Below, piece by piece: positions 30,408 through 32,075 of a stretch of 64,000 bases of DNA. This stretch comes from Eubacteriales bacterium. Its GTDB lineage: Bacteria; Bacillota; Clostridia; Lachnospirales; Lachnospiraceae. The first letter of the stretch is position 1; each line of letters begins with the position of its first letter. Made by a program: the position numbers and the translations under genes. The stretch spans positions 8,004 to 72,003 of the forward strand of contig JAUNDP010000010.1 of assembly GCA_030526005.1 (NCBI GenBank), given 5' to 3'. The notes under the pieces are model-generated. The model was not told the DNA's origin and ran no database searches. It worked only from the letters and a program-made list of their open reading frames with translations.

Positions 30408-32075
30408 ATGCTCACAATCGGGAGTGTATTGGATGGAAAATATAAAATACTGAATCAGATCGGTACAGGAGGAATGAGTACGGTCTATCTGGCGATGAAT
30501 GAAAAGGTAAATCGTCAGTGGGCAGTAAAAGAGATCAAAAAAGATAGACCATACAATTTTGCATTGATGAAACAGGGAATTCTGCGCGAGATGGAGATGC
30601 TGCGCACGCTGTATCATCCGATGATTCCCAGGATCTGCGATGTGATTGAAAAATCGGATGCAATCTTTATTGTGATGGATTATATCGAAGGGAGAACACT
30701 TGGGAAACTTGTGGAGGAGGAAGGGGCACAGGAAGAACGATATATCATTGCATGGGCAAAGCAGCTTTGCCAGGTGCTTGCATATCTGCACAGCCGGATT
30801 CCCCCAATTATCTATCGAGATATGAAACCAGCGAACATTATGCTGAAACCAAATGGAGATTTGATGTTGATTGATTTTGGAATTTCAAGAGAGTTCTGTG
30901 CGGATCACACAGAAGACACGATCTGTCTTGGAACGCAGGGATATGCCGCTCCAGAACAATTTGGAGGAGGACAAAGCGATGAGAGAACAGATATTTATGG
31001 TCTTGGAGCCACTCTTTACCACCTCGCTGCAGGGGAGAGTCCAAATAAAATGGCACGTTCCCGTCTTTTTGAAAAAGAGGAAGATTCACTGAAAATTTCG
31101 GAAGGACTAGAAAGAATTATAAAAAAATGTATGGCGGAAAATCCGCAGGAGAGATATCAATCCAGCCGGGAACTGTGGTATGCTCTGGAACATTATCAGG
31201 AACTGGAGTGTAAAACCATGAAGCGGCAAAAGAAAAAACTTTTTTTATGCGGGGGATTGCTTGCACAGGCAGTTTTTTCACTGGGAGTCTGGCTGTTTTC
31301 GGGACAGAGAATAAGAGAACTGCAAAGAGAAAACTATGAATGCTGTCTTCAGATGGCATCCAATCAGGAAGGAGAAGAGAAAATTTTGCTCTTAAAGAAA
31401 GCAGCAGATATTAATCCTAAAAAAGAAGAAACATACTTAAAACTGATCGAAGAGTTTTTGAGGGATAACAATTTTTCACATCAGGAAGATGAGATTTTTC
31501 GTGAAATATTAAATAAAAAAGGAAAGCAGAAGAAAACATATGAAATGATGGTGGCGGAAAATAAAGAGGGATATGAAAAAATAGCATATGAGACTGGAAC
31601 AGCATATTTTTTCTTTTATGAAAATACAGGGAGCAAGGAAAGAAGTATAAAATGGTTTCAGATCGCACGAGAAGCAGAAAATCTGGAAGAGCAAAAGAAA
31701 GTCAGAGCTTCTGTATGCGTGCGAATTGCGGAGTATTGGAAAGATATGGGAAGAAGGAAAAAGACAGGTGATTTTGAGATTTCTCATGGGGCATATTTTC
31801 AAGACTTAAGAACGTTGTATCAAATGCAGAGAGAACAGAAAGAGAACAAGGTTATGACATTGAAAGTATGTCAGGAAATGTTTATGCAGATGATTCAATA
31901 TACAGCAGAAATGATGAAAGATGGAATCACAGCAGAGGAAATGAAGAGCGTATTAGAAGATGGCAGAAAAGAAATAGAGGAGGCGAAGAAAGAGGCAGGT
32001 TTAGAAAAAATCATTCAAATATTGGAAGAGGAGTTAAAACAGGCAGAACAGAAAATAAAAATGGAACGGTCTTAA
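30408..32075 (+). CDS. Membrane Ser/Thr protein kinase (Hanks-type) with a helical-repeat extracytoplasmic C-terminal domain
   Basis: The kinase motifs are all present: G-loop GTGGMSTVY, WAVKEIKK (catalytic Lys), IIYRDMKPANIML (catalytic loop), IDFGISRE (DFG) and YAAPEQ (APE). A single TM helix follows (KKKLFLCGGLLAQAVFSLGVWLFSG), then about 270 aa of helical sequence. Confidence 0.85.
   Translation: MLTIGSVLDGKYKILNQIGTGGMSTVYLAMNEKVNRQWAVKEIKKDRPYNFALMKQGILREMEMLRTLYHPMIPRICDVIEKSDAIFIVMDYIEGRTLGKLVEEEGAQEERYIIAWAKQLCQVLAYLHSRIPPIIYRDMKPANIMLKPNGDLMLIDFGISREFCADHTEDTICLGTQGYAAPEQFGGGQSDERTDIYGLGATLYHLAAGESPNKMARSRLFEKEEDSLKISEGLERIIKKCMAENPQERYQSSRELWYALEHYQELECKTMKRQKKKLFLCGGLLAQAVFSLGVWLFSGQRIRELQRENYECCLQMASNQEGEEKILLLKKAADINPKKEETYLKLIEEFLRDNNFSHQEDEIFREILNKKGKQKKTYEMMVAENKEGYEKIAYETGTAYFFFYENTGSKERSIKWFQIAREAENLEEQKKVRASVCVRIAEYWKDMGRRKKTGDFEISHGAYFQDLRTLYQMQREQKENKVMTLKVCQEMFMQMIQYTAEMMKDGITAEEMKSVLEDGRKEIEEAKKEAGLEKIIQILEEELKQAEQKIKMERS

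What the first reader, a model, noticed from the sequence alone, without database searches (positions are those of the whole stretch)
30408..32075. A kinase that looks catalytically intact occupies the EssB-like slot and topology
Seen: the N-terminal ~270 aa carry every Hanks-kinase motif, namely GTGGMSTVY, the Lys in WAVKEIKK, YRDMKPANIML, DFG and APE. One TM helix follows, then about 270 aa of helical extracytoplasmic sequence.

Established: EssB/YukC of T7SSb is a bitopic protein whose cytoplasmic domain has a degenerate pseudokinase fold and whose C-terminal domain lies outside the cell.

Inference: this protein could be an enzymatically active counterpart of EssB, or an ancestor-like form. 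It would couple apparatus assembly to Thr phosphorylation.
Basis: partly seen in the sequence, partly recalled or inferred. Interest (0 to 1): 0.75.

Follow-up and report, generated by a model that had tools for sequence, protein, structure and literature searches.

The report
Active membrane kinase of variant T7SS
This gene encodes a catalytically intact membrane Ser/Thr kinase of a kind already described (in 2024) as a component of non-canonical type VII secretion gene clusters; it shares EssB's membrane topology but is not an EssB relative, and it most likely regulates secretion.

Summary
ORF 30408-32075(+) encodes a 555-aa protein with a complete Hanks kinase domain, one TM helix (aa 278-297) and a 258-aa all-helical outer domain. 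All catalytic residues are invariant in the family.

Garrett, Higginson & Palmer 2024 (PMC11217815) defined T7SS subtypes c-j. These carry a membrane kinase 'TsxD', and the authors note its EssB-like topology, its lack of sequence identity to EssB and its conserved active site.

The window's island matches that scheme:
- DUF6382-FHA (J)
- TadZ-like (V)
- YukD (B)
- EssC (C)
- WXG100 (A)
- kinase (D)
- 1571-aa Ig-repeat protein (I)

It lacks the usual PP2C and small TM proteins.

Tests for EssB homology failed. There is no YukC/EssB profile hit. The kinase domain is PknB/Stk1-like (1e-33). The outer domain is TPR-like, with no EssB/YukC among the top Foldseek hits. The gene lies 3.7 kb downstream of essC, not in essB's position.

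Linkage to EssC in other genomes is real: 24 of 40 EssC-anchored loci show the kinase module. Isolated copies also exist. The kinase's tightest partners are PP2C, FHA proteins and the Ig giant.

Most likely it is a T6SS-PpkA-like phospho-switch for the T7SS. It is a new member of a known kind.

The parts
30408..32075 (+). TsxD-type membrane Ser/Thr kinase, 555 aa (the finding)
   Evidence: ORF. Pfam Pkinase 1.5e-50. Full-length homologues of about 565 aa at 42-89% identity. Catalytic residues invariant.
30441..31160 (+). Cytoplasmic Hanks kinase domain (aa 12-251). It is an RD-type (YRD) kinase with invariant Thr171 and Thr176 in the activation segment.
   Evidence: The best PDB sequence relatives are S. 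aureus Stk1/PknB (4eqm) and M. tuberculosis PknB, at E about 1e-33.
31239..31298 (+). Single transmembrane helix (aa 278-297)
   Evidence: It is the only 19-residue window with Kyte-Doolittle score above 1.6. The same position is hydrophobic in all family members.
31299..32072 (+). Extracytoplasmic 12-helix TPR-like domain (aa 298-555)
   Evidence: AF2 model with pLDDT 92.6. Profile hits to TPR proteins. Foldseek best matches are NprR, Rap, PilF, Tom71 and MamA at TM 0.4-0.48, with none at E<=1e-3. The domain is found almost only C-terminal to a kinase plus TM: 133 clusters at E<=1e-30.
20316..21074 (+). TsxJ-like DUF6382 + FHA protein, 252 aa, no TM. FHA motifs read GK / SRRH / NG.
   Evidence: Pfam DUF6382 1.5e-7 and FHA 2.1e-13. 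AF2 pLDDT 87. The FHA half matches pThr-binding FHA domains at TM up to 0.9. Motifs.
21096..22106 (+). TsfV-like protein, 336 aa (probable TadZ-like receiver plus degenerate MinD/ParA P-loop; Walker A reads 'GGSGVS')
   Evidence: Only weak hits to MinD 4v03 (0.02), SRP54, ArsA and 3FKQ and NifH. Homologues lie between J and YukD in 44 of 80 EssC-anchored loci. The name comes from PMC11217815.
22099..22380 (+). YukD/EsaB-like ubiquitin-fold protein (TsxB), 93 aa
   Evidence: Pfam YukD PF08817, E=4e-6, 27.9 bits against a cutoff of 27.
22383..26702 (+). EssC-type FtsK/SpoIIIE ATPase (TsxC), 1439 aa. Two TM helices at aa 235-282. The N-terminal FHA-like region has IGG / no SxxH / NG.
   Evidence: TIGR03928 T7_EssCb_Firm at 779.1 bits against a cutoff of 778.4. 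Pfam FtsK_SpoIIIE. Motifs. TM.
26699..26992 (+). WXG100 protein (TsxA)
   Evidence: Pfam WXG100 3.1e-16.
26989..27998 (+). Three small helical proteins (137, 103 and about 96 aa), possibly WXG-like partner proteins
   Evidence: ORFs. Only faint ESAT6_2, DUF5344 and WXG100 hits. Conserved in L001.
28014..28718 (+). Lipoprotein-like 234-aa protein (candidate immunity protein)
   Evidence: N-terminal hydrophobic segment followed by Cys. No family hit.
28788..30275 (+). Mbeg1-like alpha/beta-hydrolase (GHSKGG) with a helical C-terminal half. It is a candidate 'reverse' lipase effector.
   Evidence: Pfam Mbeg1-like 8.2e-10. Homologues lie downstream of EssC in 16 of 80 EssC-anchored loci. The concept comes from PMC11217815.
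32137..36852 (+). TsxI-like giant Ig-repeat envelope protein, 1571 aa, with an N-terminal hydrophobic segment and a C-terminal TM anchor
   Evidence: Pfam Big_13, Big_3_3 and others. TM at aa 14-40 and 1543-1564. It is paired with the kinase in 51 of 81 related loci.
19723..20085 (-). XRE-family HTH regulator at the island's edge
   Evidence: ORF and sequence. Assigned by inspection of the HTH motif only.

Best explanation
The protein is a TsxD-type receptor Ser/Thr kinase of a non-canonical type VII secretion cluster. The cluster is closest to the T7SSe/T7SSf arrangements of Garrett et al. 2024. The host is an uncultured Eubacteriales (Lachnospiraceae-like) bacterium.

Shown:
- an intact RD-type Hanks kinase domain in the cytoplasm
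- one TM helix
- a TPR-like 12-helix ectodomain
- conserved co-location with an FHA protein, a PP2C phosphatase, small TM proteins and a giant Ig-repeat envelope protein
- frequent co-location with J-V-YukD-EssC-WXG100

Inferred:
- The ectodomain senses an envelope or cell-contact cue. This could be the membrane-proximal part of the Ig giant, or a peptide, as in the NprR/Rap-type TPR sensors.
- The kinase autophosphorylates on the invariant activation-loop Thr171 and then phosphorylates Thr on a T7SS-associated protein.
- The phosphothreonine is read by the FHA domain of the DUF6382-FHA protein encoded just before V-YukD-EssC. This gates assembly or firing of the secretion machine.

The logic is that of PpkA/PppA/Fha1 in type VI secretion. 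The kinase is a regulator that shares EssB's topology. It is not an EssB homologue.
For: - Kinase intact and under selection.
- Topology.
- The island composition J, V, B, C, A, D, I matches the published component lists.
- Kinase-anchored neighbourhoods in 81 loci: PP2C abuts the kinase in 69, a Trypsin_2-FHA or DUF6382-FHA protein lies upstream in 49, small TM protein s3 in 50, and the Ig giant in 51.
- EssC-anchored loci: 24 of 40 with at least 9 kb visible upstream contain module genes. The usual order is KIN-s3-s5-IG-J-V-YukD-EssC.
- In relatives, the s3 tail carries repeated 'EETTLL' (T-x-x-L) motifs: 76 observed against 1.8 in shuffles. These are plausible phospho-acceptor and FHA-docking sites.
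- J's FHA half superposes on bona fide pThr-binding FHA domains and keeps SRRH and NG.
- The literature proposes the same regulatory logic.
Against: - No biochemical data exist for any TsxD.
- In this window and its close relative L001 the PP2C, s3 and s5 genes are absent. The reversible switch and the best candidate substrate are therefore missing here.
- J's FHA has GK instead of the canonical GR.
- The window's EssC FHA lacks GR and SxxH.
- Some family members sit with PP2C, FHA and Ig genes among housekeeping genes, with no T7SS gene within 10 kb. The module need not be dedicated to T7SS.
Confidence: 0.6

Rival explanations
1. The kinase is the functional replacement of EssB: a stoichiometric structural core subunit of the apparatus that contacts EssC and the cell wall, and that has kept (or regained) catalysis.
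For: - Same bitopic topology.
- No EssB/YukC homologue in the island.
- Recurrent linkage with EssC.
- The ectodomain is helical, as EssB-C is (PMC3694306).
- The loss of PP2C and small TM proteins in this clade could mean a more structural role.
Against: - No sequence or profile similarity to EssB in either half.
- The ectodomain is TPR-like, and EssB/YukC is not among the 50 best Foldseek hits.
- The gene's position relative to essC varies: 0.2-9 kb downstream or 1-9 kb upstream. It never takes the essB slot, which J-V-YukD occupy.
- The kinase's tightest partners are PP2C and FHA, a signalling signature.
- Isolated modules exist without T7SS genes nearby.
Confidence: 0.2
2. The kinase and the giant Ig-repeat protein (with PP2C and FHA) form an autonomous envelope or cell-surface signalling and adhesion module. 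This module is merely often adjacent to T7SS genes and does not control secretion directly.
For: - Kinase-Ig and kinase-PP2C pairing is more constant than kinase-EssC pairing.
- L081 (IG-KIN-s3 between NFACT and FeoB), L084 (Trypsin-FHA-PP2C-KIN-small-IG between DUF885 and a tRNA synthetase) and L053-type loci (J-PP2C-KIN-s3 between UPRTase/cell-wall hydrolase and MCRA) have only housekeeping flanks.
Against: - 60% of EssC-anchored loci with enough upstream view contain the module, far above chance for a genome of about 3 Mb.
- J-type DUF6382-FHA proteins occur both in the kinase module and directly before V-YukD-EssC.
- WXG100 genes lie between the kinase and IG in L009, L019, L020 and L027.
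- T7SS genes may be elsewhere in the genomes with isolated modules. This could not be tested.
Confidence: 0.17
3. It is the cell's general PrkC/PknB-type housekeeping kinase that happens to be encoded next to the T7SS island.
For: The best sequence relatives of the kinase domain are Stk1/PknB/StkP. NCBIfam PknB_PASTA_kin gives 196 bits.
Against: - That score is far below the model's 450-bit cutoff and covers only the kinase domain.
- There are no PASTA domains.
- The family has its own ectodomain, found almost only in this context.
- The gene lies inside a low-GC island with a conserved neighbourhood.
Confidence: 0.03

Closest known systems
TsxD kinases (TscD/TsdD/TseD/TsjD) of T7SS subtypes c, d, e and j (Garrett, Higginson & Palmer 2024, PMC11217815)
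   Same: - N-terminal cytoplasmic PknB-like kinase with a conserved active site, one TM helix and a helical extracellular C-terminus.
- Encoded with TsxC ATPase, WXG100, YukD-like protein, DUF6382-FHA (J) and a large Ig-like protein with a C-terminal TM (I).
- A full-length relative (38% identity, including the ectodomain) lies in a Coriobacteriales locus with the T7SSd-type layout (L075).
   Different: - The window's cluster lacks the PPM phosphatase (F) and the small TM proteins (H, K) that the paper lists for T7SSe.
- It has a TadZ-like V protein, listed only for T7SSf.
- Its EssC has the TsfC-type FHA motif pattern (no GR, no SxxH, NG present). The paper associates that pattern with 'no kinase'.
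EssB/YukC of T7SSb (PDB structures described in PMC3694306 and PMC9600267)
   Same: Bitopic, with a kinase-fold domain in the cytoplasm and a helical domain outside. Encoded in a cluster with an EssC ATPase, a YukD-like protein and WXG100.
   Different: - EssB is a degenerate pseudokinase of about 214 aa with a distinct dimeric helical ectodomain of about 157 aa.
- Here the kinase is complete and PknB-like, and the ectodomain is a 258-aa TPR-like repeat.
- There is no sequence, profile or Foldseek link.
- The gene position differs.
PpkA / PppA / Fha1 threonine-phosphorylation pathway of the Pseudomonas aeruginosa H1-T6SS, and PpkA-TssL-Fha of Agrobacterium tumefaciens (from my own knowledge, and as cited in PMC11217815)
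   Same: A membrane Hanks kinase with an extracytoplasmic sensor domain, a PP2C phosphatase and an FHA protein are encoded inside a secretion-system cluster. This is post-translational gating of a contact-dependent secretion machine.
   Different: - The secretion system is different (T7SS in a monoderm).
- The sensor domain is different (TPR-like instead of vWA).
- The phosphatase is absent from this particular window.
- No experimental evidence exists here.
IreK-dependent activation of the Enterococcus faecalis T7SSb (cited in PMC11217815)
   Same: A membrane Ser/Thr kinase controls T7SS activity in a Bacillota member.
   Different: IreK is a PASTA-domain housekeeping kinase encoded elsewhere, and it acts on transcription. 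This kinase is cluster-encoded and has no PASTA domains.

Membership tests
Hanks-type (eukaryote-like) Ser/Thr protein kinase | Pkinase domain above the family threshold | tested here: met
   PF00069 at 172.5 bits against a cutoff of 31.7.
Hanks-type (eukaryote-like) Ser/Thr protein kinase | Catalytic residues present: G-loop, VAIK Lys, alphaC Glu, HRD Asp, Asn, DFG, APE | tested here: met
   All are present and invariant in 16 sequences. HRD reads YRD throughout the family.
Hanks-type (eukaryote-like) Ser/Thr protein kinase | Phosphotransfer activity | not testable with these tools
   Needs an in vitro autophosphorylation assay.
EssB/YukC (T7SSb core pseudokinase) | Match to the YukC (PF10140) or T7_EssB family profiles | tested here: not met
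   No such hit at E<=0.01 in Pfam or NCBIfam for the kinase or any other island protein.
EssB/YukC (T7SSb core pseudokinase) | Extracytoplasmic domain with the EssB-C helical fold | tested here: not met
   Confident model. Foldseek against the PDB gave no match at E<=1e-3, and the best 50 are TPR or helical-repeat proteins with no EssB/YukC. The profile hits TPRs only.
EssB/YukC (T7SSb core pseudokinase) | Bitopic N-in/C-out topology with a kinase-fold cytoplasmic domain | tested here: met
   Single TM at aa 278-297, kinase domain N-terminal to it.
EssB/YukC (T7SSb core pseudokinase) | Gene immediately upstream of essC | tested here: not met
   The kinase is 3.7 kb downstream of essC. J, V and YukD precede essC.
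EssB/YukC (T7SSb core pseudokinase) | Physical interaction with the EssC FHA domains in the core complex | not testable with these tools
   Needs pull-down, cryo-EM or multimer modelling.
TsxD kinase of T7SSc-j (PMC11217815) | PknB-like kinase + 1 TM + helical extracellular C-terminus | tested here: met
   compared with the paper's description.
TsxD kinase of T7SSc-j (PMC11217815) | Encoded in a cluster with TsxC ATPase, TsxA WXG100 and TsxB YukD-like protein | tested here: met
   The linkage recurs in other genomes.
TsxD kinase of T7SSc-j (PMC11217815) | Direct sequence orthology to the paper's reference TseD/TsdD proteins | not tested
Only indirect support: a relative in a Coriobacteriales locus with the T7SSd-type layout (L075).
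T7SSe cluster (PMC11217815) | Components A1, A2, B, C, D, F, H, I, J and K all present | tested here: not met
   A, B, C, D, I and J are present. F (PP2C), H and K are absent from the whole 64-kb window (tblastn E<=0.01). A2 is uncertain.
T7SSe cluster (PMC11217815) | TseC FHA keeps the GR / SxxH / NG phosphothreonine motifs (98/99/90%) | tested here: not met
   The window's EssC has IGG, no SxxH, and NG. IGG and NG are invariant in 5 related EssCs.
T7SSf cluster (PMC11217815) | A, B, C (FHA without GR/SxxH), F, J with two TM helices, TadZ-like V; no kinase | tested here: not met
   The C motif pattern and V fit. However, J has no TM, F is absent, and a kinase and an Ig giant are present.

The most novel reading that the evidence does not exclude
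In EssB-less T7SS variants, the active TsxD kinase, its TPR ectodomain and the giant Ig-repeat protein together replace the EssB/EsaA envelope scaffold. Assembly is licensed by phosphorylation of Thr-x-x-Leu repeats in the tail of the small TM protein encoded after the kinase, and these are then bound by the FHA domains of J (and of EssC where the motifs are intact).

The window's clade has lost the phosphatase and the small TM proteins and carries a TsfC-type EssC. It would be a distinct, undescribed subtype in which the kinase acts without a dedicated eraser. It would also show that T7SSf-like systems, reported as kinase-less, do have a kinase hidden beyond the giant Ig gene.
Probability: 0.15. 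Interest if true: 0.6.

Novelty: new member of a known kind. Interest (0 to 1): 0.3.

Why it matters

This analysis adds four points:
- Direct negative tests of EssB homology for both halves of the protein.
- Evidence that this kinase family is widespread in gut and rumen Lachnospiraceae (at least 588 stretches in species-representative genomes; 133 clusters at 50% identity). It forms a conserved FHA-PP2C-kinase-small TM-Ig giant cassette that usually lies upstream of J-V-YukD-EssC.
- A caution that neighbourhood surveys with 10-kb flanks miss the kinase, because the 5-8 kb Ig gene separates it from essC.
- A candidate substrate motif (T-x-x-L repeats in the small TM protein).

If the phospho-switch model holds, it would give a handle on how abundant gut commensals control contact-dependent toxin secretion.

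Tried and rejected
1. My first kinase-anchored survey found EssC within 10 kb in only 7 of 80 loci. I provisionally concluded that the T7SS linkage was facultative. The EssC-anchored scan showed this was largely an artefact of the flank limit, so I withdrew that conclusion. Genuinely isolated modules remain.

2. I tried to show that DUF6382 (the N-terminal half of J) is the real EssB-like pseudokinase. This question remains unresolved.
   - The AF2 model is good, but Foldseek hits were all to the FHA half.
   - hhalign against the kinase family gave a probability of 0.1-0.2%.
   - A DUF6382-only profile against PDB sequences gave only a spurious interferon-beta match.

4. EssB has no alignable sequence similarity to Hanks kinases, so a tree would be meaningless.

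5. The housekeeping PrkC reading was rejected. There are no PASTA domains, and the NCBIfam score is 196 bits against a 450-bit cutoff.

6. Searches for later experimental work on T7SSe/TseD or DUF6382 found only the 2024 paper.
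Full report
**Observation.** The ORF at 30408-32075 (+) is real and encodes 555 aa. Pfam's Pkinase model matches aa 12-251 at E=1.5e-50. In an alignment of 16 full-length homologues at 41-89% identity, the catalytic set is invariant: K41, E61, D138, K140, N143, DFG156-158, APE181-183, D195 and R249. The family-wide YRD replaces HRD. There is a single hydrophobic segment at aa 278-297. The remaining 258 residues fold into 12 helices in an AlphaFold2 model built on a 22-sequence alignment (pLDDT 92.6, pTM 0.88). 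The sequence-level observation is confirmed. Only the word 'slot' is inaccurate, because the gene lies seven ORFs and 3.7 kb downstream of essC.

**Surroundings.** The kinase sits in an island of about 17 kb (roughly 19.7-36.9 kb). The island's GC content is 38-40%, against 42-45% in the flanks. It lies between cobalamin genes (cbiC ends at 19653) and hemC (starts at 36979). Its genes, in order, are:
- an XRE regulator on the minus strand
- a DUF6382+FHA protein
- a 336-aa protein with weak MinD/SRP54/ArsA/3FKQ similarity and a lysine-less Walker A
- a YukD protein (PF08817 at 27.9 bits against a cutoff of 27)
- an EssC ATPase (TIGR03928 at 779 bits against a cutoff of 778)
- a WXG100 protein
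- three small helical proteins
- a lipoprotein
- an Mbeg1-like hydrolase
- the kinase
- a 1571-aa Ig-repeat protein with a C-terminal TM anchor

No island protein matches the EssB/YukC, EsaA or EssA profiles.

**Is it EssB-like?** The kinase domain's closest solved relatives are S. aureus Stk1/PknB, M. tuberculosis PknB and StkP, at E about 1e-33. A family profile of the ectodomain hits TPR proteins (natural OGT TPRs at 2e-9). It hits nothing annotated as EssB or YukC. Foldseek of the confident ectodomain model against 350,542 PDB chains gives no match at E<=1e-3. The best 50 matches are TPR or helical-repeat proteins (NprR, Rap, PilF/PilW, Tom71, MamA, OGT) at TM 0.4-0.48, with no EssB/YukC among them. 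EssB-C is a distinct dimeric helical fold of about 157 residues, and EssB-N is a degenerate two-lobed pseudokinase (PMC3694306). The resemblance to EssB is therefore one of topology and general fold class, not homology.

**Linkage.** The family is large. At least 588 stretches in species-representative genomes encode it, almost all in Lachnospiraceae and including cultured strains. De novo clustering of ORFs in 81 non-redundant kinase-anchored loci shows a conserved cassette:

| Gene | Position relative to kinase | Loci (of 81) |
|---|---|---|
| PP2C phosphatase | abuts the kinase upstream | 69 |
| Trypsin_2-TM-FHA or DUF6382-FHA protein | before the PP2C | 49 |
| small single-TM protein (s3) | abuts downstream | 50 |
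| 3-4-TM protein (s5) | downstream | 18 |
| Ig-repeat giant, about 1870 aa | downstream | 51 |
| second TPR kinase, about 630 aa | after the Ig giant | several |

EssC appeared within 10 kb in only 7 loci, which first suggested weak linkage. I then anchored on EssC in 80 metagenome loci at about 30% identity to the window's EssC. This revealed the usual order KIN-s3-s5-IG-J-V-YukD-EssC-WXG100. The 5-8 kb Ig gene pushes the kinase to, or beyond, the 10-kb flank. Of 40 loci with at least 9 kb visible upstream, 24 contain module genes and 12 show the kinase itself. Genuinely isolated cassettes also exist, with only housekeeping genes on both sides (L081, L084 and L053-type loci).

**What is known.** Garrett, Higginson & Palmer 2024 (PMC11217815) defined T7SSc-j from EssC-centred neighbourhoods.
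- T7SSc, d, e and j contain a membrane Ser/Thr kinase, TsxD. It has a cytoplasmic kinase domain, one TM helix and a helical extracellular C-terminus.
- The paper states that this kinase has EssB-like topology, no apparent sequence identity to EssB and, unlike EssB, a conserved active site.
- T7SSe comprises A1, A2, B, C, D, F (PPM phosphatase), H and K (small TM proteins), I (large Ig-like protein with a C-terminal TM) and J (DUF6382-FHA).
- T7SSf comprises A, B, C, F, J (with two TM helices) and the TadZ-like V, and 'no kinase' was found for it.
- The paper links the presence of a kinase to intact GR/SxxH/NG motifs in the EssC FHA domain. The figures are 98/99/90% for TseC and 0/0/88% for TsfC.
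- It proposes T6SS-like control by threonine phosphorylation.

The cassette I derived independently (PP2C, kinase, s3, s5, Ig giant) corresponds to F, D, H/K and I.

**How this window differs.** The island has J (without TM), V, B, C, A, D and I. No PP2C, s3, s5 or Trypsin-FHA homologue occurs anywhere in the 64 kb. The same holds for the closest related locus, L001. Its EssC has IGG, no SxxH, and NG. IGG and NG are invariant in five related EssCs. This is the 'kinase-less' TsfC pattern, yet a kinase is present. J's FHA reads GK / SRRH / NG. The cluster is therefore a mosaic of the published e and f layouts. In EssC-anchored loci that carry V, 20 of 30 with enough upstream view also carry the kinase cassette. 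This suggests that V-containing systems generally have a kinase beyond the Ig gene. I could not place the window's EssC in the published tree.

**Mechanism.** The following are shown:
- an intact RD-type kinase with invariant activation-loop Thr171
- a TPR-like ectodomain found almost only in this kinase context (133 clusters at E<=1e-30, with the domain starting near residue 300 in full-length proteins)
- a tight genomic association with a phosphatase, FHA readers and a wall-spanning Ig protein

The inferred mechanism has four steps. The ectodomain senses an envelope or contact cue. The kinase autophosphorylates. It then phosphorylates a cluster protein. An FHA domain, most plausibly J's, reads the mark and licenses assembly or firing. 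J's FHA superposes on pThr-binding FHA domains at TM up to 0.9.

A lead from related loci concerns the cytoplasmic tail of s3, which carries repeated 'EETTLL'-type T-x-x-L motifs. There are 76 in 52 proteins, against 1.8 +/- 1.3 in shuffles, and the rate is about 33 times that in other ORFs. I chose the pattern after seeing it, so this is a lead and not a test. These are plausible phospho-acceptor and FHA-docking sites, analogous to TssL in the Agrobacterium T6SS. The window lacks s3 and the phosphatase, so its substrate and reset mechanism are unknown. That is the main weakness of the model for this particular locus.

**Verdict.** The feature is real. The kinase is a new member of the published TsxD class, in a cluster that mixes T7SSe and T7SSf features. 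Homology and 'ancestor-like' status are not supported. Interest is modest, at 0.3.

Noticed in passing
Related loci, e.g. L032:11706-12491, L009:11670-12305, L014:11673-12503 (absent from the window): The small single-TM protein encoded right after the kinase (s3, probably TseH/K) has a long low-complexity tail with repeated 'EETTLL'-type T-x-x-L motifs. There are 76 in 52 proteins against about 1.8 in shuffles. These are candidate kinase substrate and FHA-docking sites. The pattern was defined post hoc.
   Followed up: partly
window 20316-20800 (N-terminal DUF6382 half of the FHA protein): The AF2 model (pLDDT 87) shows a compact beta-sheet/helix then long-helix/short-strand/helix domain that could be kinase-like. 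The 2024 paper's Foldseek table lists kinase hits for the related TsfJ. Here Foldseek returned only FHA matches, and profile comparisons with kinases and PDB sequences were negative. Whether this is the true EssB-N counterpart is unresolved.
   Followed up: partly
window 21096-22106: The 336-aa protein between J and YukD has only weak SIMIBI/MinD-type similarity, including a faint hit to 3FKQ. Its Walker A reads 'GGSGVS', without the lysine, so it is probably a non-catalytic TadZ-like (TsfV-like) protein. Homologues are present in 44 of 80 EssC-anchored loci.
   Followed up: partly
window 28788-30275 and 28014-28718: [quoted passage not shown] A lipoprotein gene precedes it. This looks like a 'reverse' lipase effector with an immunity protein, as reported for some T7SS loci. 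Homologues lie downstream of EssC in 16 of 80 related loci.
   Followed up: partly
window 32137-32400 (N-terminus of the Ig giant): The Ig-repeat protein starts with a hydrophobic helix (aa 14-40). A highly basic stretch (KGKRKKGEKK) follows, and then a second signal-peptide-like hydrophobic stretch. This may be an in-frame fusion of a small TM protein to the TsxI signal peptide.
   Followed up: no
Related loci L004, L014, L016, L018, L031, L032, L079, L138: A second, paralogous membrane kinase of about 630 aa with clear TPR repeats (Pfam TPR_2, TPR_14) often follows the Ig giant. Many clusters therefore carry two receptor kinases. The window has only one.
   Followed up: partly
Method note (vs 52-54): The 5-8 kb Ig gene separates the kinase from essC. 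Neighbourhood surveys with flanks of 10 kb or less will under-count kinase-EssC linkage. This may explain why T7SSf was reported as lacking a kinase.
   Followed up: yes
window 7205-7285 (+): An AdoCbl-II cobalamin riboswitch (Rfam RF01689, 42.3 bits against a gathering score of 36.5) lies upstream of the cobalamin biosynthesis genes that flank the island.
   Followed up: no
window 19700-36950: The T7SS island splits a tetrapyrrole/cobalamin gene region (cbiC on one side, hemC/hemD/hemB on the other) and has lower GC (38-40% against 42-45%). In L001 the same island is again followed by hemC. The insertion site is therefore conserved between species with 65% kinase identity.
   Followed up: partly
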